From: Candidatus Omnitrophota bacterium
Lineage (GTDB): Bacteria; Omnitrophota; Gorgyraeia; Duberdicusellales; 4484-171
NCBI GenBank assembly: GCA_041652815.1
Contig: JBAZGN010000002.1
Location: 77,570 to 141,569, forward strand
Direction: 5' to 3'
DNA length: 64,000 nt
Both the position numbers and the translations under genes were made by a program. The stretch's first letter is position 1; every line of letters starts with the position of its first letter. The notes under the pieces were generated by a model that did not search any database, was not told where the DNA came from, and saw only the letters and a list, made by a program, of their open reading frames with translations. Below, piece by piece: positions 3 through 27,000 of the stretch.

Positions 3-3000
3 AAAATAGAAGAAGTGTTTACTGGCATAGAGGTACCAACTTACCCCTCAACCTTACCATTTAGGGAATCGTTACATGCCATTCTCCTTTCTCGGTTTCT
101 ACGCTCAACTCGAACCTTAGCTCATCATTTAAGCGGACAGGAGCAAAAATATTTGCATGTACGCACATTTAATCCGGAAGGTTTAACCGGCTATCCAAAA
201 TTAAAGGATATTTTCGAGAAGGTGTCCTTATTTGTTTATTATGAGCAAGATGGCAATACCATACACAGCTGGATAATTATTGCTCCGGATTTTATCGCAG
301 CCGCCGGCGAGGATTTAACTCGCAGGATGCATTATGTATTCTCGGTTATACACAACGTAGAACAAAAAGTTGTTAGAGACGGAAAGCCTATAGCAGATTT
401 GGATTTCACGGCGATTGATAGAGAAGCGAACAAATTTGCAAATGAAAATATGCAACCGGGAAGGCCTATGGTAGTTAGCGGTTACATATCGAGTCCGGCG
501 GCAGAGGAATGGTTTATAAGAAATTCTTCTGACACTGTTTCTTCTCCTACGGAGGCAAGCAATCATGATAGACTTAAGAGATTAAAAAATTTCATAAATC
601 AAGGAAGTGGCTTTTGTGCTTATGAAAGGCAAGTTTTATTTAATTACTTTGAGGTTTTAAAGAAAACTTTACGGGGAGAGATTGTCTTACCACGCCAAAT
701 AGAAATTCATACAACCACTCGTTGCCAGTTGCGTTGCCGTTGGTGCATTGGAGAAAAGGAAAGGCTTGCCGTGTCACCAACCGATTTAGGCATGCAGACA
801 ATTTTTAAATTGTTGGATGAAATAAAAGCGTATAACGCGCGTCAAGGCGAAGATACTAAAGTTGCATTAGTTAGATTTTCCGGATATTGTGGCGAACCTT
901 TACTTAACCCCGCAACATTACCAGCTATGAGACGGGCTTTAGATTATGATTTGGAAGTTGGTTTAGTTACGAATGGGGTTTTGCTTAGCGAGCCTACTGT
1001 TCAAGGAGTGGTGGCACAAGCAAAGTATGTCCATGTAAGCTTAGACGTAGGGTCCGATAAAACCTATAAATTGCTGAAAGGCGGCGTACTTGGAGAGTAT
1101 GATCAAATTATAGCTAATATTAAACAAATAGCTATGCTTCGTAAAGACTCAGGAGTAAAGATTCAAGTTGGTTTTATTGTGCAGCCGGAAAATTATAAAG
1201 AGTTTCCGGCATTAGCTGATACGTTAAAGGGCATTGGAGCTAATTATATCCGTGTACGGGCTGCGATGCGTGAAAAAAAGGGACAATTAACTCCTGCGCA
1301 GTGGCATGAAGCGTATCAAATAATCCGAGATGTTAAGCAACGGTATACCGATGATACATTCCGAGTGATTGTGATGTATGACGAAAAAGAAGCACAAAAT
1401 TTACAAAGGCCAGACTATCGTCTTTGTTACGCCCATACGTTTTTGGGTGTTATCGCTCCTGATGGAGAGGTACCGCCGTGTTGTCACTTGACGTATAAAG
1501 GAGCAGTGAGTTTTGGCAATATAAGTGAAGCCTCTTTCGAACATATTTATAGAAGTTTTCGTAGGGCAGAGGTAATGCGGAATTTAGATCCAGCTGTTTC
1601 CTGCTCAATCTGCCCGCCCATGGCAGACAGAGTTAACCGATTCATGGAATTTTTGCAGGCAGAATACGTAAAAGACCCCAATTTTATAGAGTGGCTTGAA
1701 TTATTTGTCCGGGAACATAAAAAAGAAGAATCTTCAAGCCCGGTTTCTCCGGATATTAATTTTCAAAATGCTTTCACCGCGCAACACCTTCTTTTGGAAG
1801 AATTACAGCCAGAAGCTGTTATTTTAATGCGGGGTATGTTGGCGGAGGCAAGAGAGCGCTTAGAAAAGGAAGCGGCTTTTATCAATCGGAATAACATAAG
1901 TAATGCGCAACAAAGAATAGCAAGGCTTAATGCCATTATCGCCGATATTGGCAATTTAACTTTCCAAGATGTAGAAAATATACTTAAGATTTGTAAAAAG
2001 TATTTTACTCAGGCGACCGCTCTTAGTAAATCTCTCTGCCAAGAGTTAAGAATAGAACGGAATAAGCTTGCAGGGTTATATCGTATTATTCAATATCTAA
2101 CGGAAATTCAAAACTTATTTGAGCACTATTCTTGTCAGCGACGAAGAATAAGTTTCTTGCGTGAGCCGCTTGTTCCTGAAAAAATCAGGCGTCTTAGGCC
2201 TATTTTTGAAGGAGGAAAGTGTTTGCCTTCGCATGTTGAATTTCATTTAGCGTTGGGGTGCAATTTAAGATGCGAAGGTTGCCCTAATACCGAAAAAGAT
2301 GAAAATGGCAAAATGCGTTTCATCGGCTATTCTAAAATAGGCGATACACTGACCGAAGAAAGAATGAAAATGCTAATTGATATGTTTTTTAATTATGGTG
2401 TTCGCAGTTTCAGTTTTGCCGGTGGGGGTGAACCTTCACTTTCCCCGTTAACTTTTAAAGGCATTCAGTACGTCGGTCAAACTTATCCAGAAGTATTTCA
2501 AGCTATATATACTAACGGCATTTTTCCTAAAAAGTTAACGCCTTCTCATTGGGAGACATTAGCTAAATATTTGAATAAGATTAGGTTTAGCGTCGATGCA
2601 ACAAGCAGAGAAGATTGGTCAAAGTATAAGGGCCGGCCGGCGGAATGGTTTGATATGCTTTGGAGTAATATCCGTCAGCTTGTAGAAATAAGAAATACAA
2701 TAAAAACTAAGTTAAAAATCGGCGCTAGCTGTCTTGCTTCACGAGTAACGCTTGAAAATATTTCAAGATTTCTCGAACAGGCACAAGCAGCGGCAATTGA
2801 TTTTTGCGATATCAAAGAATTGGCTGTTTGCACCGAAGCTAAAGAAGAATTTAGGCCCGATAACAATAAGGTATTACAAGTAGTTAGGAATATATCAGAA
2901 AAGATTAGAGAAGGCGTTTACCAGCCGCTACATATCGTCTTTGACGATACTCTTTTAGCCCCTCTTTCTGAAATGCAGCCTCAAGATTTTCTTTCAGACA

Positions 3001-6000
3001 GATGTTGGTGGGCGATAACCGGCCGCCTATTGACAATAACTCCATATGGCGAAATGTTTCCTTGTCCCGATGCAGCTGATCCTGGTTCTCAGAAGGCAAT
3101 GGTGCATAACCCCGGCCTAGGGGTTTTGAGGCGCTTTGAAAGCATTGAATCATTACGGGAAGAATTCGAACGGCTTTGGTCAGAGGGGTGTGAAAAGCGG
3201 TTATTGATTTCAAGGGAAAACTGCCATTACTGCGTTCCGTCGCACTATAATTACAATTTGGCATTGGAAAAACTTTTTCAAGATTGGTATTTCGGTATAG
3301 AACCAGAAGACCAGCCATTTGCCGGCTTAGAAGATGAATATTTACGTTCACGCGGTAAGGGGCCGGCTCTCAAGGTTCAAGGTAGTTCTCCTTCTTCGTC
3401 TGTCGTTGTCGGTCACTCGATAAAAGGAACAGCCGGCCCCATTGAAATGGCTGTCCGAAGCATTCTGCATCCCGCCTCTTCTCCCGTAACAAAGGCCGGA
3501 TTTTTTGATATTGATGGAGTGTTATTTAGAAAATGTGACAAAGATAGATATGAAACATTAGGCCGGGATTTTGTTTCTCGCGGTATAGCTAAATTACTTA
3601 GCACCGGAAAGATTTGGGAGAGCGTTTTTGAAACACAAAAATATATGCAGATGATTTTAAGAGGAAGTATCGGCGAGCAAGAATTTATCAGTGCCGTAAA
3701 CGCGAGATTAAGAAAACGCGGCCTCAAAAGAGAGTATCAGACCGCCGAAGAACTTTGGCGAGTATTCTTTAGAATCTTAGAGCCTAATTTTAAAATAGTC
3801 AGGATTTTAAAAACTATGCAGGCTTTAAATATGCCTTGCGGAATAATTTCTGACCGCTTTTTGGGTGATGTTCCAGTTATGATGGAGGCTATTGATGATA
3901 CATTTGTTGGCTTATTTGATAGGGATTTAGTTTTCCATTCCTGCGAACATCGCTTTACTAAGCAAGATGGGGATTTGTTTACTATGGTTGTTGATGTTTT
4001 ACGAGGTAAGCATGGTTTAATTAGCCCTAGTGAGATATTCTTCGTGGACGATAATGAAGATATTCTTACAGTTGCTCGGCAGGTTGGTTTACAAACAGTC
4101 CATTACGTATTTGCTGATGCGGTTGCGCCTGAACTCGACTACCCGATTTTTAGAGAAATTCTTAATAGACTCGCTTCTTCTCCCGCTGACGCCACTTCAC
4201 CTAAACGAAAAATATTGCTTAGCACTGACTTAGGCTTTTTCCCGGATGATTATGTGGCACTGGCGTTACTGCTAAATACTCCTGGAATTGATTTAGCCGG
4301 CGTGTTTTTAAGAGGAACGAAAAAATTCCCAGCAGAACCAGAGCAAGCAGAAAGAATTTTAGCGCTAAGCGGCAGAGCATATATTCCTGTGTATTCTGGC
4401 GTAAAGAAAACTTCTGACTCCATAGCAGAAGCTATAACTAAGGCTAAAGGCAACATAGCAATATTATCTATTGGTTTGTTGACAATTCCCTATAAAGCTT
4501 TATCAAAAGTAATAGCGCAGGGAAATGAAAGATTTCTTAAGAATTTGCGCATTGTGATTATGGGCGGGTCATTTAATCCCTGTGAAGATATGGATGAATC
4601 TGGCTTGACCGAATATAATTTCCGCGGAGATTTAAAATCTACCCAAAAGCTATTTAATTTATTTGAAGCACACCGATTTGCCGATGTCAGGATTACGCCC
4701 TATGAAGTGCTTATGCTAATGAGTGTAAATGAACAGATTAAATTTTTAGCAGGCAAGAAAAATTCTGCGGGCGGAATAGTTGCCGGTAAAATCATTGCGG
4801 CTATTAAATATTTTCGCAGAATTAAAAAACTTTTACCCAAAACCCGTTATAATTTCTGTTTGTTTGACCCGGTAGCAGCAGAAGTTTTAGTTAATCCCGA
4901 TATGTTAGTTTGGCAGCCGGTTGAATTTGCAGAGCTGCCTGTTACAGAAGTGCTCGGAAAAACATTCTTTGGTTTTAAACCCAGCAAAAACAGAAATGTT
5001 TTATGCGCTCTCGATTTCGCATCTAAAGTTAAAGAGGGCGAATTCAGAAAGAAACTTGGCAGCCTTTTTGATGATTTAGCAACGAAAGAACAGATTTCTT
5101 CACCGATAGAAGATAATAGCGTCATTGCTTTACTGCAAGAAACAATGCAGGGGCAGGAAATTTCTGAAGAAGGAAAGAAAAAAATAAAGGAAACCGCCGA
5201 AAGCAAGCCCGAGCTTTTTGGAAGAGTGCTATCAGGAGAGCGACGTGATGGCAATTTTAGAAATGCCGTAGATGATGATGAGCAGATGAAAGCATACCGG
5301 GGCGAGATTGAAGGCAAAATAAGCGAGATTGCAGAAATTGGCCGAAGATTACAAGTAAGAGTAGATATCAGGGATTTAATTGAAGACGCCCTGCAGATGG
5401 TCTTTGCGCTGACTCCGGAATATTTCTTTAAGACATATTATTTGGGCAAGGACGCAGCTAAAGAGCATGGCGTGCTGCATGCCTTGGAGGACTTATATTA
5501 CGGTTTAAGGATTATCGAGAAAGATGAAGAATTAAGGAATATGGCTATTGATTATGAATGCCTGATTTATGCCTGCCTTTTACACGATAGCGCCGGGATT
5601 ATTTCTAGGGTTAACCACAGCACCACCTCGGGTTATTTCGCAAAAGCGTTCCTTGAAGCCATAGGCAAAGAAACATTAGCTGCCAAAACATGGAAAGTAG
5701 CGAATGCACATCACGGTATAGAGGTTAAACAGATATGGGGAGAGGCCGTATATGATAATTGCCCCGAAGCAAGGATTATTAAAGACGCTGATTCGCTTGC
5801 GAGCGGTTTAGACGTTGAACGGCTTTGCAAAATGGTTATTTTATGGAAACCGCAACCGGGTGAATATAAAAACTATATTTTTGACGAAGCATACGGCAAG
5901 AAAACAAGATTAGAGCATTGGAACGTAAGATTTCCGCGGAAAAACGGAATAGTGGTAGAGGCAGAAGAAGAAAAATGGGTAATTAGCAAAAACGACAGGG

Positions 6001-9000
6001 ATTTTATACAATTTTTGCTCGATAACATAGTTTTCAAAACTATGCCTATTTATTATATGACCAAAGGCGCAGCAAGAATTTTGCGTGAAAACGAAAAACA
6101 TAGCGCCTTAGGATTTATTTTGGAGAAAGTAGATGATTTGATTGGCGAGTGGGAAAAGAAATGGAAAATTAAATTTAGCTCCGAAGAAAGAGTTGAAATA
6201 AAGAAGATAATTTCCGATTTATATGAAGAGGCGTTAAGAATAGTATGCGAAGAAAAAAATCTTGACTATACGCAGTTAAGGAGAGAATTTCCTGATATCG
6301 GCCAACGGGCAGTAGGTATATTTAAAATGTGCGCTTCTTCTTCCATAAGCTCACCGTTTACCGGCACAGCAGTAGCGGCCTTGAGCGATGAAAAAGGGTT
6401 TGCGTCTTCGCCATTAGCGGGAAGTTCGAGCGACGCAGAGAAAAGAACGCGGAATTTGAAATTTGCGTTAGGTTTATTATGTAAAAGCGGCGATTGGCGC
6501 AAGGCGGTTGAAGTTATAAATGAAATTGGCGAACTCAAATCGCCCGTTGCAATCACAGAAATAATACGTATTCTTTACCGGGATGATTTAGAAATATTGC
6601 ATCAGGATGCTGTTGCGGCTCTTCACAAAATTGATGTTTCAAAGCTTTCCGCCAAACACTACCGTTTTATCGTCACATTAATTTCCGGATTGATACGCAA
6701 CAGAATTTCCGGCAGCAATTTCGTCGGCATAGACCCGCTTTCCAAAGATTTATTTGAATTATTATGCCATACCACTCGTTCATGGAGCGATATCGAAACT
6801 TTCAGTAATTGGATGCTTACGCGGATAAATATGGTTTCCTACTTTGCGGACGAATATTCACAATCGATGTACATTATGTATTATATGGTTGAAACAGCCA
6901 AAATGTTTGCTGAGCCGGCAGCCGTAGAACTGGTTGTTAAAATCAAAGATAAAGCAGTAAAGTTCAGAAGTTATTTATCTGCCACAAAAATTGTCCGCAA
7001 ACACCGGCTGATTGAAAAGTTAGACGGCCTTATTGATTATGCCGATAGAGTATTAACTTATTTAGAGGCTGTGCCGTTTAACCCGGATAAATTGCAACAG
7101 GTATCTTCGCCCATAGGCAGAAGAGAAGTAGAAAGAATAAGAGGGCTGATTGAAAGAGTTGATGCCCTTGCTGCAGAAGTGAATAAATTAGCATGGGATT
7201 TTTCTCCCGCCGGCAACGAGCACACAATGCTTTCTACGAGAGGTCAGCAATTAATGAGCTTTGGGGAGATAGTCAGGAGCTCGGACACTCTCGACGAAAA
7301 ATATTTTGACTTTTTTAACATTTGGGAAAATTTATTATCTTGTTGGATGAATTTCTTATCCAGGCGTGTACGTAACTCACACGAGGCAGCTTTTAAGAAA
7401 GCAGAAAAAATGCTTCGTTTGAAAATTATCCCGGGATTTGAAGAAGCAATCAAGATGTGGCTGTTTACGAGCGAAGATTATTTAGGCAGATTTTATTTGG
7501 ATTTAGCCATTGTTAGGTTGGAAGAAGCAGAACGTTGCATAGACGAGTCGCAAGGAAAAATTCTCCTGCACAGAGAAGCTATAAGCCGTAGATTCAGACG
7601 GCATCATCTAAGTAATTTAGGAAGCAGCAGATACGAATTGGCAAAATTTGATAATCGCGTTGCTGATTTAGAAAAAATTAAAGCCGAAATAATTAGCGTC
7701 AACGATGAATTAGAACGTTGTCGTTCTGCAGGGTTTCTCGAGAATTTACCTGTAATTATTTCTTCATATCGAAGAGTTAAAAGAATAGCCGGGTTAATTA
7801 ATAGTGTAACAGTAAACGCGTTTTTAAGGATATGTTTATTCGAAAGAGGAAGCCTTATTTCCAGGGCAGAAGCCGACTTGGATGCAATAATAAAAACCGC
7901 CGCTTCAACCTCCAGCCCCCTCATAACCGGCACTTTCCGCACCCAACTTGGCATATTATCCGAAGCAATTGTTATAGATAACGTATTAATAAATACTTTT
8001 TCTTCATCGCCGGTGAGGAATATTTCTAATGGCATCCCTCGTTCCATGAACGCTTTTTTAAAAGAAGCGTTTACGCGTTATGAAAACGAAGGCGCTGCAT
8101 GGGCGAATAACTTTCTTTATCAGAATCATGAAGCCGGAGTATTTGCTGACGGAAGGTCTGCGCGGTCATTTCTTGAAGCAGTAAAAGTTATTACTGCTGT
8201 TGGTGAGCCGGATATGAGAGCCGGTGCAAAATGGATACTTTCTTTAAAGAATTTGCCCGATATCTTAAGCATGCTTAAGCCGGGAGAGCAGGATTGGCTT
8301 AATTATGCCTTAGGCATCGCTTCTCGGCTTGAGCATAACCTTCAGCCATTAAATGTTTGCAAACATAATGGTGACCTGAATAGTGCTTTAAAAAATTGTT
8401 CCTTTCTCTCTGGCGATGAAGGAAAAGTGACGGTTTCAAAATCAGATCCTTTCCACGTTACCCTATGTTATAAGAAAATCCCTGATTTTAAAGGAAAACT
8501 GTATCTTAGGTTAAAGGCTGGTAATAATAAAGAAGAAATTTTGCTTTTTGAAAATGCCAAAAATTATTCAGCAAACAATTCAGAATGCTACATTTGGCAG
8601 ATTGCCCCTTCAGCTTACGATGGATTCCTGGAATTCGATTTCATAATGTTAGATGAATACGGGTCATTTTCTTTATTGATAGACCGCAGAAGATTTAATT
8701 ACATAAATAAGATATCTCCCTTAAGTATACCTATGTTGGGAGTAAATTATCAAGCCGCGGATAGATTAAAAGAAACAAATGTGGTTGCTTATGCGATGGA
8801 AGCTGCTCTTCTGATGCAAACCCTTTCTGGAACCATGGGAGGCGGTTTAGGAATTTTGATGGGAAGTTTTTTACGGGCTTTAAGGTATTCAGGCGCCAAT
8901 GTTTATTTTCCGCTTCTAAGATACGCCAAAGGGATTGAGCAACGCGTAGCAGACGGCAAGCCCCAGGTAGTAAAAGGCGTCAGTTTGGATTATTCGGTTT

Positions 9001-18000: not shown

Positions 18001-21000
18001 CTATGAAATTATCATTTAATGATTTGGGCATAACTCTTATTGATGCCCGCGGGATAGACGCAACACGCGAAGCGGATAGGATTTTAGAAATCATTAGCAG
18101 TATGCTTGAGGAAAGAAAAGCAAAGGGTTGCTCGCAAATTTCTCCAACTGAAGCAAGCTTAATACCGCGTAAGGTTTCTTCTTCAGTTGGGCCATGGGAA
18201 CAAAGCGATTTTACAGCAATTAAGCCAGGAGAAGAATTTGGTAAATTTGAGAGGGATGTTTTATGGAGTGCAATGCGCACAAGAGGAGAATATGCCGTAG
18301 TGAGCATTAAAGATAACAAAGCCACAGTTCTTGCCTTTAAGCATGGAAACTTGGCAAATGATTCCTTAAGCACTGATGAAAAGTTAAAGATTGCTAGAAT
18401 ATTTGCGGTTGCCAGAAATCGAGTTAAGCATTATTGCGACGAAGAACAGGGGGAGATTATTGTCCCGGCACAATTATATGTAGTATTTGCCTTGCCGGAA
18501 AAAGTTAATATAGCTGTTTATCGTGGCCGTCCGGCAAAAGAATGCATTTTGTCAATTGCTGTAAATGGAGAAATTATAGTAAATGGTGCGAGAACGCGTG
18601 GCACCCACATAGAAAGTATGCCCGTGATTTCAAAAGTTGCCTTTAGCGATATTATTACTTTTTATACTGTCCTTGCTCACATAGCGAATGCTTCCCGTGA
18701 AGCCAAGACAGTAGTTGTGGAGGGAAATGCAATAAGAGGACCCGCGAAGTACGAACTCCACAAAAACGGCCTTTTTAGACAATTGATAATTTTGGGTGGA
18801 TTGAGAGCAGAAAAAATAATAACTAAAGAAGACTACGCCCGCGCATACGGCATAATCGCTAAGGATTTGGAGATCACCGAGGCAATGCGGAAAGCGTGGG
18901 ATAGAACCGAAGGAGATTATTCTGCAGGAAGAGTTTGGCAAAACGAAAATAAAACTTCCTCACCTGCCAATGAGAGAGATATGGAATCACAAATAGCTGG
19001 CTGGCTCAATAAAGCAACTCCAGAACAAGAAATACCAGCCAATGGAATTGAGCAGCAAACTCAGGAACTTACCCGCTGCATAATAGATGCCCAGCTGCTT
19101 GACGTCGATGCAAAAGGTTTCCTGCGTGAACAACTCACCGATTTTAGACAAAACCATTCACGAGCCCCGATATTACAAACCGCCGCAATAGCCGCACTTG
19201 AAACAATTTATGCGGATAGGCCTGTGGAAATCGGAAGAGAAGGGCATATAACAAATAGGGTTTATATAAATGTTTGTCCGATAGAATGGCCAGAGGCAAC
19301 ATTTAATTTTCCCTCAAAAAATCCAACGGCATTTCATTTCTTGCATAACAGCCTCGATGAAGGCGAAAGAGTCGTCGATATCTACATAACTCAAAGAGCT
19401 TGGCGTGAAACCCCGGCAAGAAAATTATTCATAGCCATAAGCGTAGAAATCATCACTGTTCTTACCAAAAAATCTCCCCGAGAAATTCTTCTGCTCTTTA
19501 AAACCCCAACTAGTCAACAACCTCAAGATACTCAAGGTACCGGAGAAGAGGTTTCTTCATCTGTAACTTCGGCTGCTGCGATAGAACTGGCTAATGCTCT
19601 TTCTAAAATGGATGACGCCGAATATACCGGTTTTCTTTTAGGAATACTGCGTTCTGCACCGCAAGATTTAGATGTTGTTGAAACTGCGGTAAGATTTTTG
19701 CGATACCCTCTCATTTTCGGTATGCGCCCAACCGCAATTATCAACGCCTATATGCGGGCTTACGAACACTATTGCCAGGTACGTATACGCTCAGTTATCT
19801 TAGATTCATTTGCTTTAGCGAAGCAGAGAGTACGAAACCGAATAAAAGTAAAAGATTGGCTTTTAAGGATTACACAGGCAGAAAAAAGAAAAAATTTAAA
19901 CCATCTTGCTCGGCAGCTTTTAACTTCCCTTGAAAACCAAAACCTGCGCCAGGACGAAAGTTCTTCACCCCTTGAGCGTGAAGTAACAGTAAAAAGAGGA
20001 GAATCATTTAAAGCTTTAAGCAAAGGGGATGCGGGAGAAGTTTTATATGTTGCAGAAGGAGAATTAGAAGTTACGCTTGACGAAGCCGAAGTTATTCTAG
20101 GCCAGGGAGAATTACTTATATTATACATTACCCCAGATAGCGAAAGAGTTTCATCGAAGATAAGAGGTTATCAAGCAGTAGCGCGTAGGCCGGCAAAGGT
20201 AAGGCAAGTACAGGTTAATAATGGCACAGTCAAGGTAGATTTAATGTTACAAAGAGAATTGCTATTGACTACGGGTGATATAGTTGAAGAAGTCCGCCGT
20301 GCAAAAGATGGCGCACTTATAGCGCATATATATAGAAATCCCGATTTTCAGCTTAGAGTATTTGACCCGGAACGCGCGTCTTCTTCGGTTACGCATAATA
20401 CTAAGTTAAATCGGTTGCGGCAGTTTAAAGAGGGTGGCCTCTTTCCGTGGCTGGTGGAGCCCCCTTCTGCCGCAGCCGTTTCTTTACCCCATAATTACGC
20501 TAATCTCGTAGGTTGGAATTTGCTAATTAGCCAGGGGTTAGGAAATTCAGGCTCCTCACCCATCGAATCTAACTTTGCCCTGGAAGATTATCTTAAGCGG
20601 AGTAATGAAATTGTAGAAATAGATATGACAACGAATATATTGGCAGAGCAAGATAAAATTGTTGATAACTTGATGGCAGGAAAAGTTTTGAAATTAACAA
20701 ATTGGCCGCAAGGCAAAGCCGCGCCTTATGAGGGCAAATGTTTACCTGCCACGAAAAATGCACTTGATTATTTTGCCTATGTAGTCACCATGGCTTTTCG
20801 TCTTTTGATTGACACTAACATTGAGTTTCTTAGCTTTCAAAGAGTGCTTACTGAATTGATTGCTAATGCTTTAAACCACGGCAATAAGTTCTTTTTGCAT
20901 TTACCAGTTTTTATGCACATCGATACGCAGAAGAAGCAAATTACAATATATGATTTAGCCCAAGAAAGAGCAGAGGATGACGAATGGGACAAGCTAGTTG

Positions 21001-24000
21001 TAGAGTCGGCGGATGTATTGTTAGGTGGTGGCACTATAGGTATGGAACTTATCGAAGAATATTTTAGTTATGAGAGGAAAACTTTATTCGAACCAGTATC
21101 AGGAGTAAAACTAGGAACAATGGTTTTAGCTACCAGGAAAGCTTCGTCATCGCCAGCTTCTTCGCCTTCTTGGCAAGACGCAGTTTCTGCATCAAGAAGC
21201 ATTCAACCATGGACTATTGGCGGCGGTAGTTATTATTTTGTCGAAGTTAAAAAAGGTACGGCTTTTGATGTTTATGTATCTACAGATTTTATAGACATAG
21301 ACCCGGGCCTTAAACAGGCAGGTTTTAGACCGGGTTTAAATATTCAGAGATACGAGAACGTTGTTAATGCAATTAGGTCCTCGGTAAGGGGAGATTTAAC
21401 CGTGCCAGCCGGCATAGACCCAAGGCCTATAGCGATGGATTTAGCCATAAGCACATTTTTTAATGCCGAGGAAAGAGCCGTGTTGGAAGATCGAGGCATT
21501 GCCGGTAAAGCTATGCGCGCGCAGATAGAAGATGTTTCTGATTTATTGGCGGAGCTGTTTAGAAAACAAAATATAGTTGAAGGCTATCGTGGGTTATTTG
21601 AAGAGCAGCGCGCGCGCTGGAAGACAAAAGAAGTTTTGGAATATTTTGATGCGCCCGAAGGCAAGTATTTTATCCCACGAAAAATTACAAAAGATGATCT
21701 GTGTATGCTTGCGGCAGGCTTGGTGCATTTGGGGGCGGTGGATATTAATAGAGAAGTTGACTCTATGCGCGAGTTTCTTAGCGGCGTAGAGGCGTTGAGG
21801 AAGAGGCTTGCTCCTGTCGCGCTTTCTATGGCTTATACCGTCTTATGGATGAAGGATTCACGTGTTTACCTTCCTTACAAGCCTGGGTGGCCTTATCGTT
21901 ATCTGGTAAGCGATGAACTTTATGTGAAAGAAATAATCAGGGAAGGAATGGTTATCTCAGGCATAGGCAAAACGCCTTTTATGATTTTTGCCGACACTGT
22001 TTCAAGGGCTCATCTTGAAGATTTACATAGGCATTTGAGGGCGATTGATGATTATCGTGATATTCGTTTTTACGTTTTTCCCGCAAGTTGGGTAACCGCA
22101 AGGATTCTTATTGACGATGAAGGTAGGAGTATCCCAGTTGAGTTCTTAATCGATAATTCACACCTTGACTGCGTAATGCAATTTATCCCCAGCCATTGCC
22201 GCCATAACCAGCAGGCAGCTTTAGAAATAGACCCATTGTATCATAACGAATTAATTGCCAAGAATCATCCTGAATTCTTACTCTTCAAGTCCGAGCAAGG
22301 CCTTGAGTTTGTCACAATCGATAGTGATGAAAGGCATCTTAATCCGGCTAATGCCGGCCGGCCAACTCCTGAACGCGATTTCTTTGTCTTTGCTCCAACG
22401 CCTACAGGCCGCTATAAAACAATAGAAAACTTAGGGTTAAAACAGGGCCACTTTTTAGTTCTTCCTTCAAATCCCCCTCTTCGTTACCTTTCTTTGGGCG
22501 GAGGCTGGATTGATTGCACTATGACTCCGGTTGAGCGGGATTTACGAGGAATTTTACCTTTTATCCTAACGGAAGAGTTCAAGAAAGCCGTAGCAGAAGG
22601 AGAATCTTCATCGTCCGCTGCAGCCATGTCAATTGCCTGGCTTAATGTGCATGGGTTTGTTGAAGACGTGGCGCAAAAAGGAATTCTTGAAACGCAAGTG
22701 AAAACTGCATTAGATTGGTCGAAGCGCCCCATGCAGATTTTTAACATCCCGTCTTCTATACCTCACGAAGAAATCCGTGCCCATACTCGATATCTTTTTA
22801 GAGATGTTAGGCACCAGGTCAATACAATCGTTGCCTGTGGCCATTATTTTTATTATATGAGAGATGAAGGTGGATGCATGGAGCAGGCAATCAGAGGCCT
22901 ATGCGATACATTTGGAAATAAGAGTTTTAGTTTAATATTGCCTCTTGATTTGATTGAGCATTTAGCGCGAGAAGGTTATGTAGTAAGCAGAGAAGATTTA
23001 TTGGATGTTTTAAGCTCTACGCAGTTAGCCTGTCGCGCTACGCGTGTATTCTTTGACGGCGTTGTTTCGCAAGGCTGGAATCCATTGGAAGTTAGAAACG
23101 AAGCCTACTTTTATACAACTTCTCAAGCAATGTTGCAACATTTCATGTCTTTACCCTCAATCCCTGTAGCTACCGTTAACAAATGCGCAAGACAGAATGA
23201 TGGTAGTTTTTATCATAATAGAGAAGAAATTTCATCGCCGCTGTATACAGGAAATAATTTCAGAATACTTTTCGTCGCTTTGCCGGGATTTGATACGATT
23301 AATCCTTATGCCTATATGACTTTTGCATCTTTGATTGCGCCGCTTAAAGATAAAACATTTTTGAATAGGTTGTTAGAAAAGGCAGGCTTATCGAAAGTAA
23401 TTCTTGATAGGCCCATTGAAACAAAAATAATTTATCCTAAGAACTTACGCCAATTTAGCAAAGATTTAAATTCAGGGGGGCGCTTTGATGCGTTATGCGT
23501 ATCTGCTACAAGCCGCCAAATAGAGGAAGCTCTATTGGTAGGGTACGCCTTTATGCGGGCTCAACCTCAGGCTTTACGTATTATCGGCGGAGCTCACGCA
23601 AGCGTAAGGCCTTCCCATTTTCTAAGGAATAATATTTACCAACTTGTTTGTTTAGGCGAAGGGACTGAAACTTTAGCGGAAGCTTTAGCTCTTCGCGCGG
23701 CAGGTTTAAATGATTTTAGAAACTTGGAAGGGGTTGCTTTTAATGATGAAAAAGGAATAAATATTAACCGCAGGAAAAGTTTTCTTTTTGAGCTTGATGA
23801 GTATCCCTGGTTTTCAATTGTATTAAATGATTTGTTGCCTTTATCTACAAAGGCAGAACTTGCTGATACGATGTTAATTTTAGGCGGGATAGGTTGTCCG
23901 AATAACTGTTATTTCTGTGCGCAAAGAGCTATCCATGACGGGAAAGTAAGGCTGCGTAGCGGAGCAAGCCTTTTAAAAGAAATGGAATATTGGCTTGAAA

Positions 24001-27000
24001 GGAAAATCAGTATGTTTTTTATTTTACACGAAAATTTTACTGCCGATAAAACGCGTTTAAACGAATTCCTTTCTTTGATTGAGGGCAAAGGATTTGACTG
24101 GCAAGTCGAAGCTGACGCAAGATTAACTATCGAAGAATTACAATGTATGCAAAGATGCGGTTTAAGCGCCATAGAATTCGGCATTGAAAACGCAGACCCA
24201 AGAGTGCTTGCGGCAGTAAATAAGCATTTTGACGTTAACCATGCTTTAGCTTTGATTGCGGAAGCCAGGCGTTTAGGAGTTGTGGTAGGCGCATACTATT
24301 TAGCCGGGCTTCCTCAAGAAAGAAGCGACAGCATAAACGTTACGCGCAACTTTATGAGGCAAGCGGGATTCAACGGAAAAAGCACAACCGCAAATTTTGG
24401 CATCGCTATCCCCTATCCCGGAACAATAGCGTTAGAGGAAGGTTTAATTAGGCTGGTTGGAATGAAAGATGACGGAGAAACCAATTTTCCACCGCGCCGG
24501 CCTGCCGCCAGCCAATGGACTTATACTGAAACTGACGCCGCAACCGCAGGAGAAATTGGAACGCATTACGCTTCTTTACGGGCATTATACAATCTGCTTA
24601 CCCAGCAAGCAGATGCAGGTTTTGGCTCATCACCGGTTTCCTATTATTTTGGAAACAACCCCCTTGCCTTAACTACTTCGCCCCTAGCGCAAAGCCAAAC
24701 AGCTTTCTTAGTTAGAAATGGCGATGGGAAGATGGCGCGTCAATATCGTCAAAGTAATGTTTTTGACAGCTATATGTACCCCTGGCTTTTAAGTCAAGAC
24801 GATACTTTTAGAAGCGTAACACGCGTACGATTAATAGTGAAACCTGTGCATATTTTTGAATCAAAAAATTCTTCTGATTGGGAGCTTTTACCTGAACATA
24901 TCAGGCAAATATACGAATCCGGAAACGCTCTTTTTACCGGCTCAACAAATGAAATCCTTGCCAATCCAAGCAGATATTCAGCGCTGATGGTTTCAGGCAG
25001 AGATGAAGGTTTCAGAGGGCGCACAGGAATTTTGTTTTATGACAATAACCCGGTAATCGTGAGAGTCAACGGACTGGAATTTTTTGTAGAAATTAAAGGT
25101 TTAGGGGTAGCCGGCGGAGGATTTCCTTCGGTTCATATCCGGGATGGTTTTGATTATCAAGTTACCGGAGCACAGAAGCCGGCTTCTTCAATGAGAGAAT
25201 TTGAAAATCTGGAATACGAAAGAGCAGCCGATACTGCGCTTTTTTCCGCAGGGAATACTGCCCGCGCGCTTAGGGCGTTTACCTATGAATACAATGGTAT
25301 AGATTCCCTTATTGCGAGAAGTAATTTACATCCCAATCAGCAAGACAGTGCTTTATCTGAATTAGGCAACAAGTTAGGTATGGTATTAAGGCTTTCTCCT
25401 TCCAGTTTAAGATGTGCTTACGGGTTAGAGCTGCGCCATGCAAAGCTTTTGGGCGTAGCTTATAGCCAGTGGTTGTGTTCAGATGCGCCGCGTATTCATC
25501 AATTTCCGCATTTCGAAAATCTTATCGAATGGCACAAAGGACAAGAAGTCGCCTGGACAGATTATGCTGATGTGAAGTTTATATTCGAAGGATATGATTT
25601 TCACCCGCCTTGTTTTCATTTCGTAAGCCGGCTTCTTTTTACAGATTCAAACGAGCATCTTAACCGGCATATAGAATTATTTAGAAAGTTAGGAATAATC
25701 AAACAGGGAAGCGAATTTATGACTGGATTCTACAAGGGTTTTGCCGAATACGCCCGTTCAATAAATTGGATATCAGATGCTACAGCAGCCCGCATAAACG
25801 CCTGCGGCGACTTAGACGATTTTATCGATATTTTGGTATTTGAAGTTATGGCGCTAAGTATATATAAGTGGTTTATGGTTCTACCTACGTTACGGACAAT
25901 CGAAATTGAACGTAAGGGCAGATATGAAAATTTATTAAGCGCGCTTAATGCAGCTTTGGTGCGGGCGCAGGAAACCGGGGATAAGGAAACTACGGCAGCG
26001 TTAATTGCTGATATTGATAAATTTAATCAGGGAGGAGTTGTATTGGGTTGTCGGGCTATACGTAAGGCTTCTTCTTCACTTATGGCTGAATATCTCACCA
26101 TCTCCGGCAAGCTCCGCGCACCGCCGGTTACAGATGTCAGATGTCAGCTATTGGCTTTGGCTGAAAGGAAAAGCCAAACCACGGCCCTCTGGCCAGCAGC
26201 GGTCAGCGGAGAAGGGAGTTCGCCTGTTTCAACAGATTTAACCGGGCAAAAAATAGCAAGCCAACCCTGGAGAGATATTTTACAATTCAGTTTATCCGAA
26301 GACCAGTTTAGGAAAAGATTAATTTACTATTACGAGCGCCAATCTCTGAGAGATTTTATTCTTTCTCTGGATGATCCAATAGCAAGTCAATTATTAGATA
26401 CATTACGGCAAACTCAGGCTACTGATTTATATATCGACCCTGAAATTACCGTCGAAGAACTCGCCAGATTTTTCCAAAACCCTGCAACAAGCGATATTTA
26501 CACAGTTTTATATCAATACTCAACTGGGTTAAGACTTGAATTTAGAAACTATAAAACTCTGGGAAAAGCCATAGACAACATTGCGACTAAGACAATCGAG
26601 ACAATTGAAGGCTGGGATAGGGATTGTTTCAGTATGCTTGTTGGAGGCAGAGGCGTTCCAAATGCAGATTTGGCTGCAGCCTGTAGAAAGACTTTAGTTC
26701 AAGCGCGTATTCCTTTTTCCGGAAAATGCGCTTTGGCGATTGCCGAAGCGCTCCAAAGAAGTTTAGAATTAAGGCGCGCATTTTTCGCAGCTTTACCTAT
26801 AGGAAGAATAGACTGTTCCAGTGAAGCCCTGTTACCGTTACTTGGCCAAGAGGAATATCTGGGAAATATTTCGCGCTTGCTCGATATAGAACTAACGCCT
26901 CACTACGCAGAGAACGGTGGGAGAGACCCTATGCGGGTGAAAGACTTGTTCTGTAAATGCGCTGACGTAGCATTTAGCGAGCACGTATTAAGGCGGGTAG

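What the first reader, a model, noticed from the sequence alone, without database searches (positions are those of the whole stretch)
690..24450. Three radical SAM domains inside the giant protein: two tandem rSAM/SPASM-like and one B12-binding-type
Canonical CxxxCxxC boxes sit at 723-746, 2259-2282 and 23895-23918. Each has a GGEP-type glycine motif. The first two are followed by auxiliary Cys clusters. SPASM/twitch-type radical SAM enzymes are classically peptide or protein-modifying maturases. Their presence within a punctuated polyprotein raises the possibility of intramolecular (cis) post-translational modification of the giant protein itself. It also raises the possibility of an on-board maturase module. 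The B12-binding rSAM type is typically a C-methyltransferase.
Basis: partly seen in the sequence, partly recalled or inferred. Interest (0 to 1): 0.7.

Follow-up and report, generated by a model that had tools for sequence, protein, structure and literature searches.

The report
Three radical SAM modules, giant protein
Three intact radical SAM enzyme units sit inside a single open reading frame longer than 21,000 codons, and their closest relatives are free-standing enzymes that remodel sugars, so they look like built-in metabolic enzymes and not devices that modify the giant protein itself.

Summary
Frame 3 is open across all 64 kb (21,332 codons, no stop). It contains exactly three CxxxCxxC boxes, at the stated coordinates, against 0.035 expected by chance.

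The subtypes need correcting:
- **D1 (aa 189-570) and D2 (aa 710-1113).** These are distant paralogues in one uncurated radical SAM family. Each has only the first four auxiliary cysteines (CX12-14GX4C...CX2C), which makes them twitch-type (one auxiliary cluster), not full SPASM. All seven cysteines and the SAM motifs are conserved across 146 family domains.
- **D3 (aa 7745-8210).** It has the two-domain class-B (B12-type) fold. It has no GGEP motif, its Pfam B12-binding score is below threshold, and cobalamin binding cannot be read from sequence.

The functional idea of cis maturation of the giant protein is not supported. D1 and D2 relatives are fused to, or sit next to, DegT aminotransferases, NDP-sugar epimerase/dehydratases, nucleotidyltransferases, glycosyltransferases and Wzx flippases. 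The best fold match for D2 is DesII. D3 relatives sit in small-molecule uptake and catabolism clusters. I found no RRE domain and no precursor-like repeats.

Two preprints already list radical SAM domains among the frequent domains of Omnitrophota giant proteins. This is a new member of a known kind, of moderate interest.

A side observation may be more novel: an [S/A/V/G]-S-S-P-[V/I/A/L] tripeptide punctuates the protein 59 times and brackets each module.

The parts
3..63998 (+). Giant open reading frame that runs through the whole window. Both ends lie outside it, so the protein is longer than 21,332 aa.
   Evidence: No stop in frame 3, against 768-1859 stops in the other frames. Only one marginal hydrophobic segment is present.
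540..548 (+). SSP punctuation site (aa 180-182) immediately upstream of module D1.
   Evidence: The alignment of Omnitrophota protein P0047 to the window starts at its own SSP987, which matches this site.
567..1712 (+). D1: radical SAM plus twitch module (aa 189-570).
   Evidence: Pfam Radical_SAM aa 236-406 and SPASM aa 475-538. Family HMM envelope aa 189-570. 39% identity over 368 aa to the free-standing rSAM-DegT fusion P0001.
723..746 (+). D1 CxxxCxxC box (C241, C245, C248), ligands of the SAM-binding [4Fe-4S] cluster.
   Evidence: These columns are 100% conserved in 146 family domains.
882..899 (+). D1 GGE-type SAM motif, GYCGEP (aa 294-299).
1425..1613 (+). D1 twitch auxiliary-cluster cysteines: C475-X12-G488-X4-C493 ... 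C534-X2-C537.
   Evidence: The four columns are 88-98% conserved. No CX5CX3C follows.
1734..1742 (+). SSP site (aa 578-580) between D1 and the D2 module.
1743..3383 (+). D2 module (aa 581-1127): helical N-terminal extension, radical SAM core and twitch domain. It is collinear with a whole free-standing protein.
   Evidence: 45% identity over 468 aa with no gaps to residues 47-514 of the 519-aa protein P0177. Family envelope aa 710-1113. AF2 model pLDDT 74.6. Top fold match is DesII.
2259..2282 (+). D2 CxxxCxxC box (C753, C757, C760).
2421..2435 (+). D2 GGE-type motif, GGGEP (aa 807-811).
3003..3233 (+). D2 twitch auxiliary-cluster cysteines: C1001-X14-G1016-X4-C1021 ... C1074-X2-C1077.
3384..3392 (+). 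SSP site (aa 1128-1130) closing the D2 module. It lies about 6 residues beyond the point that corresponds to the C-terminus of free-standing P0177.
23232..23240 (+). SSP site (aa 7744-7746) opening the D3 module.
23256..23702 (+). D3 N-terminal Rossmann-like (B12-binding-type) domain (about aa 7752-7900), carrying the family motifs GGxH and GEGxE.
   Evidence: Pfam B12-binding 24.5 bits, below the gathering score of 32.1. Homologues carry PF02310. Invariant G118, G119, G141 and E142, and nearly invariant H121. Fold matches to TsrM, TokK, OxsB and MgmA extend over this domain.
23865..24407 (+). D3 radical SAM core (about aa 7955-8135).
   Evidence: Pfam Radical_SAM 45.5 bits. AF2 model pLDDT 79.8, pTM 0.81. 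PDB sequence match to AprD4, E = 1.3e-11.
23895..23918 (+). D3 CxxxCxxC box (C7965, C7969, C7972).
   Evidence: Invariant in 25 homologues.
24627..24635 (+). SSP site (aa 8209-8211) closing the D3 module.

Best explanation
The three sites are intact radical SAM enzyme modules embedded in frame in a multi-enzyme giant protein of the kind described for Omnitrophota. Each module is bracketed by an SSP linker motif and corresponds to a whole free-standing enzyme found elsewhere.

**D1 and D2.** They belong to two subfamilies (22% identical) of one uncurated twitch-type clade. Each would bind a SAM-cleaving [4Fe-4S] cluster on CxxxCxxC and one auxiliary [4Fe-4S] cluster on four C-terminal cysteines. 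I infer that they make a 5'-deoxyadenosyl radical, abstract a hydrogen from a sugar or nucleotide-sugar substrate, and use the auxiliary cluster as electron acceptor or substrate anchor. This would resemble BtrN, DesII, BlsE or MoaA, and feed or follow a DegT-type transamination in glycan or deoxy-amino-sugar chemistry.

**D3.** It has class-B architecture (Rossmann-like domain plus radical SAM core). Its chemistry is unknown. It probably also acts on a small carbohydrate-like substrate, and it is not necessarily a methylase or a cobalamin binder.

**What is shown and what is inferred.** Shown: domain identity, intact ligands, family relationships, fusion partners and gene neighbourhoods of relatives, and folds. 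Inferred: substrate class, cluster content, activity, Omnitrophota origin, and that the modules act on free metabolites and not on the giant polypeptide.
For: - **Motifs and Pfam.**
- **D1 and D2 are related.** They align with each other and with P0001, with all 3+4 Cys invariant.
- **Ligands are conserved.** In a 146-domain family alignment the seven Cys are 88-100% conserved. G..GEP, TNG and S.D are also conserved, and both D1 and D2 keep all of these.
- **The family is large.** The exhaustive search gives 867 representatives at E < 1e-30. 32 of the top 150 are at least 1000 aa long.
- **Fusion partners of the family:**
  - DegT aminotransferase in P0001, P0026 and P0027.
  - NAD epimerase/dehydratase in P0029 and P0037.
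  - NTP_transferase plus LbH in P0055.
- **Gene neighbourhoods of D2.** Free-standing D2 orthologues (38-48% identity, full length) were found at nine metagenome loci. In the four loci I annotated they lie in glycan clusters with some combination of a Wzx flippase, DegT, GT1/GT2 and NDP-sugar epimerases.
- **Solved-structure matches for D1.** PDB sequence matches are BlsE, DesII and MoaA.
- **Fold matches for D2.** The top fold match is DesII (TMq 0.62 over about 400 columns), then SuiB, SkfB, BlsE and anSME.
- **D3.**
  - Fold matches are TsrM, AprD4, TokK, MgmA, OxsB and CysS.
  - Homologues of about 685 aa sit beside sugar ABC transporters, PfkB, transaldolase, xylose-isomerase-like proteins, SDR, aldolase, and MFS/DeoR genes.
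- **Omnitrophota link.** Long proteins carrying the D1/D2-type module are named Candidatus Omnitrophota in NCBI.
- **Literature.** PF04055 is listed in 90 long Omnitrophota proteins within a sugar-metabolism co-occurrence module (10.64898/2026.06.07.730766).
- **Location.** Almost no TM helix is predicted in the window, which fits a cytoplasmic Fe-S enzyme.
Against: - No curated family cut-off is reached by D1, D2, D3 or ten free-standing family members. The best is TIGR04317 at about 90 of 380 bits, so no substrate is known for any close relative.
- No DegT-like module was found in the 21,332 aa of the window.
- Twitch and SPASM enzymes that modify peptides (SkfB, SuiB) are also among the fold matches. 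Class-B enzymes that modify proteins exist too (MgmA).
- One D3 homologue context is an amino-acid-type ABC system with an FAD oxidase, not a sugar cluster.
- Some D1-family relatives are fused to TIR or DUF4062 plus TPR, which points to another biology.
- The source organism could not be located.
- Nothing here shows that the giant ORF is translated, cleaved or active.
Confidence: 0.6

Rival explanations
1. On-board maturases. The radical SAM modules act in cis or in trans on the giant polypeptide itself, for example on the recurrent SSP linkers or on cysteines. They would install crosslinks, methyl groups or oxidised serines before or instead of proteolytic processing.
For: - Many SPASM/twitch-superfamily members are peptide maturases, and SuiB, SkfB and anSME are among the fold matches of D2.
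- MgmA, a protein glutamine methylase, is among the D3 matches.
- ApyD, a RiPP enzyme, is one of the two best NCBIfam models for D3.
- The giant protein carries a 16-fold over-represented S-S-P motif. Its S-x-P core loosely recalls the (C/S)-x-P-x-R target of anaerobic sulfatase maturases; that comparison is from memory.
Against: - Only four auxiliary Cys are present (twitch), whereas anSME and most RiPP maturases have the full SPASM motif (PMC6231123).
- No PqqD/RRE hit was found.
- There are no tandem repeats and no precursor-like repeated peptides.
- Free-standing orthologues of D1 and D2 occur outside giant proteins, in glycan clusters or fused to NDP-sugar enzymes.
- In the SSP logo, position +2 after Pro is not Arg.
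- D3 homologues sit in catabolic clusters.
Confidence: 0.06
2. D3 is a genuine cobalamin-dependent radical SAM methyltransferase (C- or P-methylation of a small molecule or glycan), as the first reader assumed for the B12 type.
For: - It has class-B architecture, with fold matches to the methylases TsrM, TokK, MgmA and CysS.
- The family motifs GGxH and GEGxE in the Rossmann-like domain are conserved.
- NCBIfam gives weak matches to several methylase models, including PhpK, KedN5, HpnR and the RiPP C-methyltransferase model.
Against: - The best PDB sequence match is AprD4, a diol dehydratase that does not bind cobalamin (PMC12931638).
- The best NCBIfam models are HpnJ and ApyD, at about 100 bits against cut-offs of 578 and 750.
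- Pfam B12-binding is below the gathering score.
- Non-methylating class-B enzymes cannot be distinguished by structure (PMC12931638).
- D3 lacks the roughly 200-aa C-terminal domain of its 685-aa homologues.
Confidence: 0.25
3. The modules are degenerate relics. They would be structural or scaffold remnants of fused genes that no longer bind clusters or turn over.
For: - The sequences are very divergent (22-47% identity to the nearest relatives), and no curated family threshold is reached.
- D2 gives only weak Pfam scores.
Against: - All 3+4 Cys, the GGE-type motif, TNG and S.D are retained in D1 and D2. All three cluster Cys are retained in D3.
- The D2 alignment to a free-standing orthologue has no gaps over 468 aa.
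- The predicted folds are confident.
- The same module types recur with intact Cys in other Omnitrophota long proteins.
Confidence: 0.05
4. Nucleotide-modifying, defence-like chemistry. D1 and D2 would act on nucleotides or nucleosides, in the manner of viperin or MoaA, together with the downstream HAD, nucleoside hydrolase and HD modules.
For: - Weak NCBIfam matches to prokaryotic viperin (51 and 42 bits against a cut-off of 180) and to MoaA.
- Viperin and MoaA are among the fold matches.
- The next modules downstream are HAD, IU_nuc_hydro and HD.
- Family members are fused to TIR or DUF4062 plus TPR.
Against: - The viperin matches cover only the radical SAM core and are far below cut-off. 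To my knowledge viperins lack the four-Cys twitch domain.
- The closest relatives and neighbourhoods point to NDP-sugar and glycan enzymes.
Confidence: 0.1

Closest known systems
DesII (TDP-4-amino-4,6-dideoxy-D-glucose deaminase, PDB 8HZV)
   Same: - It is the best fold match of the D2 model and a sequence match of D1.
- It has a three-part layout: helical N-terminal domain, radical SAM core, and a C-terminal beta-hairpin plus helices (PMC11434129).
- DesII acts on the product of the DegT-family aminotransferase DesI (from memory). D1 and D2 relatives are fused to, or adjacent to, DegT genes.
   Different: - DesII binds a single [4Fe-4S] cluster (PMC11434129), whereas D1 and D2 keep four auxiliary cysteines.
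- The TIGR04426 model scores only 42-49 bits in family members against a cut-off of 450.
- Identity in the structural alignment is about 17%.
BtrN (2-deoxy-scyllo-inosamine dehydrogenase), the archetypal twitch enzyme
   Same: - Four cysteines fully ligate one auxiliary [4Fe-4S] cluster in a truncated SPASM domain.
- The substrate is a small amino-cyclitol.
- It works alongside a DegT-type aminotransferase in butirosin biosynthesis.

(PMC6231123 and PMC9012708 for the cluster and substrate; the pathway partner is from memory.)
   Different: BtrN was not recovered as a sequence or fold match in the lists shown. There is no evidence for the same substrate.
BlsE (cytosylglucuronate decarboxylase, PDB 7VOB)
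   Same: It is the best PDB sequence match of D1 (E = 1.1e-7) and a fold match of D2. Its substrate is a nucleoside sugar.
   Different: The match covers only the core (137 residues). TIGR04466 gives 35 bits against a cut-off of 400.
AprD4, HpnJ and ApyD, among class-B-architecture radical SAM enzymes
   Same: - All have an N-terminal Rossmann-like domain plus a radical SAM core.
- AprD4 is the best solved sequence match of D3.
- HpnJ and ApyD are its best NCBIfam models.
- TsrM, TokK, MgmA, OxsB and CysS match by fold.
   Different: - All scores are far below family cut-offs.
- D3 ends at an SSP site, without the C-terminal domain of its 685-aa homologues.
- The cobalamin status of D3 is unknown, and AprD4 binds none (PMC12931638).
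Omnitrophota multi-enzyme giant proteins (Archaeovorin-type; the 'multi-enzyme metabolic clusters' class)
   Same: - A very long ORF tiled by many different enzyme Pfams: GT5, HAD, HD, HATPase_c, methyltransferases and radical SAM.
- Radical_SAM is listed among the frequent domains (10.1101/2023.11.21.568195, legend of its Fig. S1; 10.64898/2026.06.07.730766).
- Long NCBI proteins that share the D1/D2 module type and the SSP motif are labelled Candidatus Omnitrophota.
   Different: - The source of this window was not found in the collections searched, so membership is inferred.
- Neither preprint subtypes the radical SAM domains or mentions an SSP motif.

Membership tests
Radical SAM superfamily (PF04055) | A CxxxCxxC motif providing three Cys to the SAM-binding [4Fe-4S] cluster. 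| tested here: met
   Three motifs, at aa 241, 753 and 7965. The columns are invariant in 146 (D1/D2) and 25 (D3) homologues.
Radical SAM superfamily (PF04055) | Pfam model score above the gathering threshold. | tested here: met
   72.7 bits over two stretches (D1 and D2) and 45.5 bits (D3), against a cut-off of 29.5. D2 on its own also gives Fer4_12 at 27.6 bits against 22.
Radical SAM superfamily (PF04055) | A GGE-type SAM-binding motif after beta-2. | tested here: inconclusive
   Present in D1 (GYCGEP) and D2 (GGGEP). No such motif exists in D3, where the family column reads HENF/QETF. Whether that is the functional equivalent was not tested.
SPASM domain (two auxiliary clusters) | The seven-cysteine motif CX9-15GX4C-gap-CX2CX5CX3C-gap-C (PMC6231123). 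| tested here: not met
   D1 and D2 have only CX12-14GX4C...CX2C. No CX5CX3C or terminal C follows, in D1, in D2, or as conserved columns of the 146-domain family alignment. The Pfam SPASM hit on D1 (38.7 bits) covers the shared first half.
Twitch domain (one auxiliary cluster) | The first four Cys of the SPASM motif, with the conserved Gly, in a C-terminal extension. | tested here: met
   C475/G488/C493/C534/C537 in D1 and C1001/G1016/C1021/C1074/C1077 in D2. The Cys columns are 88-98% conserved and the Gly column 77%.
Twitch domain (one auxiliary cluster) | A beta-hairpin followed by a helix, packed on the partial TIM barrel. | tested here: inconclusive
   The D2 model shows short strands at residues 300-303 and about 309, followed by helices. 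Its top fold matches are SPASM/twitch-type enzymes. pLDDT in this region is only 50-80, and model coordinates could not be inspected for Cys geometry.
Twitch domain (one auxiliary cluster) | Actual binding of an auxiliary Fe-S cluster. | not testable with these tools
   This needs Fe/S analysis, EPR or Mossbauer spectroscopy on reconstituted modules.
RiPP / protein-modifying rSAM-SPASM maturases | An N-terminal RiPP recognition element (PqqD-like winged helix). | tested here: not met
   No PF05402 or other RRE hit at E <= 0.01. The D1 N-terminal extension is about 40 aa. The D2 extension (aa 581-709) is shared with free-standing P0177. A fold-level search for an RRE was not done.
RiPP / protein-modifying rSAM-SPASM maturases | An associated precursor peptide or repeated core peptides. 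| tested here: not met
   No tandem repeats in 64 kb. The only internal similarities are whole enzyme modules. Neighbours of free-standing orthologues are glycan enzymes.
Class B (cobalamin-dependent) radical SAM enzymes | An N-terminal Rossmann-like B12-binding domain fused to the radical SAM core. | tested here: met
   The AF2 model (pLDDT 79.8) aligns over about 400-440 columns with TsrM, TokK, OxsB, MgmA and CysS. Homologues carry PF02310. Pfam PF02310 on D3 itself is below threshold (24.5 against 32.1).
Class B (cobalamin-dependent) radical SAM enzymes | Cobalamin is actually bound and used. | not testable with these tools
   Binding is base-off with no diagnostic sequence motif, and AprD4 has the fold without cobalamin (PMC12931638).
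Curated NCBIfam equivalogs (DesII, BlsE, MoaA, viperin, anSME, W_rSAM_matur, HpnJ, ApyD, AprD4 and others) | Whole-protein score at or above the curated cut-off. | tested here: not met
   - D1 best: TIGR04317, 88 of 380 bits.
- D2 best: viperin_w_prok, 42 of 180 bits.
- D3 best: HpnJ, 100 of 578 bits.
- Ten free-standing family members also fail every cut-off.
Omnitrophota multi-enzyme giant proteins | An ORF of more than 10,000 aa tiled by many unrelated enzyme Pfams with no dominating repeat. | tested here: met
   More than 21,332 aa with about 25 distinct Pfam families. No tandem repeats.
Omnitrophota multi-enzyme giant proteins | Encoded in an Omnitrophota genome. | tested here: inconclusive
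   The source was not found in genome or metagenome collections. The link is indirect: relatives sharing the module type and the SSP motif are NCBI Candidatus Omnitrophota proteins.

The most novel reading that the evidence does not exclude
The radical SAM modules are on-board maturases that act on the giant polypeptide. The most specific version is that they act on the S-S-P linkers that bracket every module, for example serine oxidation, epimerisation or crosslinking that marks or controls inter-module processing. The giant protein would then carry its own radical post-translational modification machinery.
Probability: 0.05. Interest if true: 0.85.

Novelty: new member of a known kind. Interest (0 to 1): 0.4.

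Why it matters
This shows that the radical SAM content already counted at Pfam level in Omnitrophota giant proteins consists of complete enzymes with all their cluster ligands. These enzymes belong to uncharacterised sugar-associated clades. That supports reading such giant ORFs as in-frame concatenations of whole metabolic enzymes.

It raises practical questions:
- How are five or more Fe-S clusters loaded onto one polypeptide of more than 21,000 residues?
- How is that polypeptide reduced and kept anoxic?
- Are the modules released by processing?

The SSP-delimited boundaries give exact construct limits for expressing each module. The free-standing orthologues in glycan clusters give tractable proxies for finding the substrate.

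Tried and rejected
1. **Locating the source or close orthologues of the giant gene.**
   - Two genome-contig scans returned nothing, or only distant generic radical SAM matches.
   - A first metagenome scan with exact peptides from D1 and D2 returned nothing.
   - The word-indexed protein search with 900 aa gave a single hit and no self-hit.
   - Taxonomy therefore rests on indirect evidence.
2. **Naming the D1/D2 family with NCBIfam.** No cut-off was reached for the modules or for ten free-standing members.
3. **Full SPASM assignment.** Rejected because the second half of the seven-Cys motif is absent.
4. **Looking for a DegT module inside the window** with BLAST and phmmer. None was found.
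5. **Precursor-like repeats.** TRF and self-BLAST found none.
6. **Internal translation starts after SSP sites.** SD plus ATG occurs near 1 of 59 sites, against 3.8 ± 1.9 at random positions, so independent initiation is not indicated.
7. **SSP as a DNA-level signal.** Rejected because all synonymous Ser and Pro codons are used.
8. **The second radical SAM gene in locus L024 as a D1 orthologue.** It is only 22% identical, so it is a distant relative.
9. **Reading the Grell et al. 2015 SPASM/twitch review.** It is not held. The definitions were taken from PMC6231123 and PMC9012708 instead.

Full report
**1. What is in the sequence**

The window is not a set of genes. It is the interior of one ORF. 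Frame 3 (nt 3-63998) has no stop codon in 21,332 codons, while the other five frames carry 768-1859 stops. GC content is even, at 0.39-0.45.

Within this translation the pattern C...C..C occurs exactly three times: aa 241, 753 and 7965. With 1.18% Cys, 0.035 occurrences are expected by chance.

Pfam supports the three sites:

| Module | Pfam result |
|---|---|
| D1 and D2 | Radical_SAM 72.7 bits over two stretches (cut-off 29.5) |
| D1 | SPASM 38.7 bits at aa 475-538 |
| D2 | Fer4_12 27.6 bits at aa 749-867 |
| D3 | Radical_SAM 45.5 bits; B12-binding 24.5 bits at about aa 7787-7894, below the gathering score of 32.1 |

The rest of the ORF is tiled by unrelated enzyme domains. These include HAD, IU nucleoside hydrolase, HD, GT5, Glu/Leu dehydrogenase, cupin, CBM48, GH77, MutS_V, SEC-C, a protein kinase, several methyltransferases, EEP, GDSL, HATPase_c and sigma-70 region 2. 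Only one marginal hydrophobic segment is present, so the stretch is predicted to be soluble.

**2. D1 and D2 are twitch-type, not full SPASM**

D1 (aa 189-570) and D2 (aa 710-1113) align with each other at 22% identity, and with the free-standing protein P0001. The shared features are:
- CxxxCxxC;
- a GGE-type motif (GYCGEP at aa 294-299 in D1, GGGEP at aa 807-811 in D2);
- TNG and S.D;
- four C-terminal cysteines. In D1 these are C475-X12-G488-X4-C493 ... C534-X2-C537. In D2 they are C1001-X14-G1016-X4-C1021 ... C1074-X2-C1077.

The SPASM definition is the seven-Cys motif CX9-15GX4C-gap-CX2CX5CX3C-gap-C, which binds two auxiliary clusters. The twitch domain is the truncated form with one cluster, and BtrN uses four Cys to ligate it fully (PMC6231123; PMC9012708). 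D1 and D2 have only the first four Cys, so they are twitch-type.

I built a family alignment of 146 full-length domains from the exhaustive search:
- the three cluster Cys are 100% conserved;
- the four auxiliary Cys are 97, 97, 88 and 98% conserved;
- D1 and D2 keep every conserved column that matters for ligands and SAM binding.

They are therefore not degenerate. They are also not recent tandem duplicates, because each has its own closer free-standing relatives:
- D1 is 39% identical over 368 aa to P0001, 39% to P0176 and 55% to P0031.
- D2 is 45-47% identical, without a single gap over 405-468 aa, to the 519-aa protein P0177.

**3. What the D1/D2 family does elsewhere**

No curated model names it. 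The best NCBIfam hit for D1 is TIGR04317 at 88 of 380 bits. For D2 it is prokaryotic viperin at 42 of 180 bits. Ten free-standing members also fail every cut-off.

The exhaustive HMMER search gave 58,262 hits at E <= 1e-3 and 867 at E <= 1e-30.

Fusion partners of close members point consistently to nucleotide-sugar chemistry:
- DegT/DnrJ/EryC1 aminotransferase in P0001 and P0027, and in P0026, which reads rSAM-DegT-rSAM-X;
- NAD-dependent epimerase/dehydratase in P0029 and P0037;
- sugar-phosphate nucleotidyltransferase plus a left-handed beta-helix in P0055.

Two others (P0060, P0049) carry TIR or DUF4062 plus TPR.

Gene neighbourhoods agree. P0177 lies between a Wzx-type flippase and a DegT gene. 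A methyltransferase, two NDP-sugar epimerase/dehydratases, GT2, GT1 and another rSAM/SPASM gene follow. A targeted metagenome scan returned nine further D2-type loci at 38-48% identity. In the three long loci I annotated, the neighbours were as follows.

| Locus | Gene immediately downstream | Other annotated neighbours |
|---|---|---|
| L029 | class-B-like radical SAM gene | Wzx flippase, DegT, GT1 |
| L030 | class-B-like radical SAM gene | GT2 |
| L033 | class-B-like radical SAM gene | DegT, GT1 |

Solved structures agree as well:
- D1's sequence matches are BlsE, DesII and MoaA.
- The AF2 model of D2 (pLDDT 74.6, pTM 0.80) is closest to DesII (TMq 0.62, about 400 aligned columns). It is followed by SuiB, SkfB, BlsE, anSME, viperin, NifB, PqqE and MoaA.
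- DesII has a helical N-terminal domain, a radical SAM core and a beta-hairpin C-terminal domain, but a single cluster (PMC11434129). D2 shares that layout and in addition keeps the four auxiliary Cys, as BtrN does.

**4. D3**

The module between SSP7744 and SSP8209 has homologues that are free-standing proteins of about 650-700 aa carrying PF02310 plus PF04055. One is 50% identical and about twenty are 31-35% identical. The three cluster Cys, GGxH and GEGxE are invariant or nearly so.

The AF2 model (pLDDT 79.8, pTM 0.81) matches class-B enzymes across both domains: TsrM, AprD4, TokK, MgmA, OxsB and CysS. The architecture call is therefore right.

The function call is not safe, for four reasons:
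- The best solved sequence match is AprD4 (E = 1.3e-11), which does not bind cobalamin (PMC12931638).
- The best NCBIfam models are HpnJ and ApyD, at about 100 bits against cut-offs of 578 and 750.
- The same review states that non-methylating class-B enzymes show no distinguishing structural features.
- D3 has no GGE(P) motif, and it lacks the roughly 200-aa C-terminal domain of its longer homologues.

Neighbourhoods of the homologues are uptake and catabolism clusters:
- Two nearly identical loci hold a sugar ABC transporter, PfkB kinase, transaldolase, xylose-isomerase-like TIM barrels, MFS and SDR. One of them also has a class II aldolase.
- One locus holds MFS, DeoR and a ribose-type ABC system.
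- One locus holds an amino-acid-type ABC system plus an FAD oxidase.

None of these is a RiPP or protein-modification context.

**5. Modules and punctuation**

The tripeptide SSP occurs 59 times against 3.7 expected and is the most enriched tripeptide in the protein. Its consensus is [G/A/S/V/I/T]-S-S-P-[V/A/L/I]. All synonymous codons are used, so selection is on the peptide and not on the DNA.

None of the 59 sites falls inside a Pfam match, although those matches cover 17% of residues (P about 2e-5). The sites bracket D1 (aa 180 | 578), the D2 module (578 | 1128) and D3 (7744 | 8209).

The D2 module is collinear with essentially the whole free-standing P0177. That protein ends 5 residues after the end of the alignment, and the giant has SSP about 6 residues further on.

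The same enrichment, with the consensus [S/A/V]-S-S-P-[I/V/A], occurs in long proteins that carry the D1/D2-type module and that NCBI labels Candidatus Omnitrophota. Examples are P0183 (27 against 1.6 expected) and P0187 (22 against 1.3). Other long carriers lack it.

SD-plus-ATG starts are not enriched after SSP sites.

**6. Comparison with what is known**

West-Roberts et al. list Radical_SAM among the most frequent domains of Archaeovorin-type giant proteins. Their legend glosses it as 'SAM-dependent methyltransferase' (10.1101/2023.11.21.568195). A 2026 preprint counts PF04055 in 90 long Omnitrophota proteins. It places the domain in a sugar-metabolism co-occurrence module and describes a class of 'multi-enzyme metabolic clusters' (10.64898/2026.06.07.730766).

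Neither preprint subtypes the domains or mentions SPASM, B12 or an SSP motif. The presence of radical SAM domains in such proteins is therefore known. New here are:
- the subtype assignment (two twitch-type subfamilies and one class-B-architecture module);
- the demonstration that the ligands are intact;
- the link to free-standing glycan-cluster enzymes;
- the module boundaries.

**7. Verdict**

The domain identification is correct. The cis-maturase idea runs against all the contextual evidence but is not formally excluded.

The best explanation, with confidence about 0.6, is three catalytically competent radical SAM modules acting on sugar-type small molecules within an Omnitrophota-style multi-enzyme giant protein. 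Novelty is a new member of a known kind, and interest is moderate (0.4).

What remains inferred: substrate class, cluster and cobalamin content, taxonomic origin, and whether the modules work within the intact polypeptide or after processing.

Noticed in passing
window 3-63998 (59 sites, e.g. nt 540-548, 1734-1742, 3384-3392, 23232-23240, 24627-24635): The tripeptide S-S-P, consensus [G/A/S/V/I/T]-SSP-[V/A/L/I], occurs 59 times against 3.7 expected, with mean spacing about 360 aa. All synonymous codons are used. None of the 59 sites lies inside a Pfam match (P about 2e-5), and the sites bracket modules that equal whole free-standing proteins. The same roughly 17-fold enrichment is seen in several NCBI Candidatus Omnitrophota long proteins (P0183, P0187, P0145, P0065, P0047) but not in others (P0032, P0039, P0170). 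It is a candidate processing, linker or phospho-site motif, and neither giant-gene preprint mentions it.
   Followed up: partly
window 3477-4184 and 10827-11537 (aa 1159-1394 and 3609-3845): Two copies of a HAD-hydrolase module, 42% identical, each starting and ending at an SSP site. This is an old internal duplication of a whole module.
   Followed up: no
window 60864-61067, 42396-42731, 45828-46793, 55821-56213: Sigma-70 region 2 (52.6 bits), MutS domain V, a Hanks-type protein kinase domain and an HATPase_c domain all lie inside the same ORF as the metabolic enzymes. Information-processing and signalling domains inside a polyenzyme are unusual.
   Followed up: no
L029:8450-12815, L030:9875-13168, L033:8528-12682: In free-living glycan clusters the D2-type twitch radical SAM gene is immediately followed by a second gene of about 425-437 aa. 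This gene is class-B-like, with a Rossmann-like N-terminus, and is 23-25% identical to the D3 core. A DegT aminotransferase gene lies next to this pair in two of the three loci (L029, L033). The result is a recurring, uncharacterised rSAM-rSAM(-DegT) set.
   Followed up: partly
proteins P0060 and P0049: Members of the D1/D2 radical SAM family occur fused to an N-terminal TIR domain or DUF4062 plus TPR repeats. This layout resembles anti-phage defence proteins.
   Followed up: no
L023:30-1991 (protein P0002): The closest homologue of D3 (50% identity, 653 aa) has hydrophobic, TM-like stretches at both its N- and C-termini instead of the C-terminal domain of the 685-aa homologues. Its reading frame is open to the 5' end of its 2-kb contig.
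   Followed up: partly
protein P0026 (1631 aa, Logan assembly): A four-part protein, rSAM(twitch)-DegT-rSAM(twitch)-unknown 300-aa domain. Both of its radical SAM copies are about 40% identical to D1. It looks like a compact version of the tandem arrangement in the window.
   Followed up: partly
literature: 10.1101/2023.11.21.568195, legend of supplementary Fig. S1: The legend expands the Pfam name Radical_SAM as 'SAM-dependent methyltransferase'. This appears to be a mis-gloss and may have hidden the Fe-S radical enzymes in earlier descriptions.
   Followed up: no
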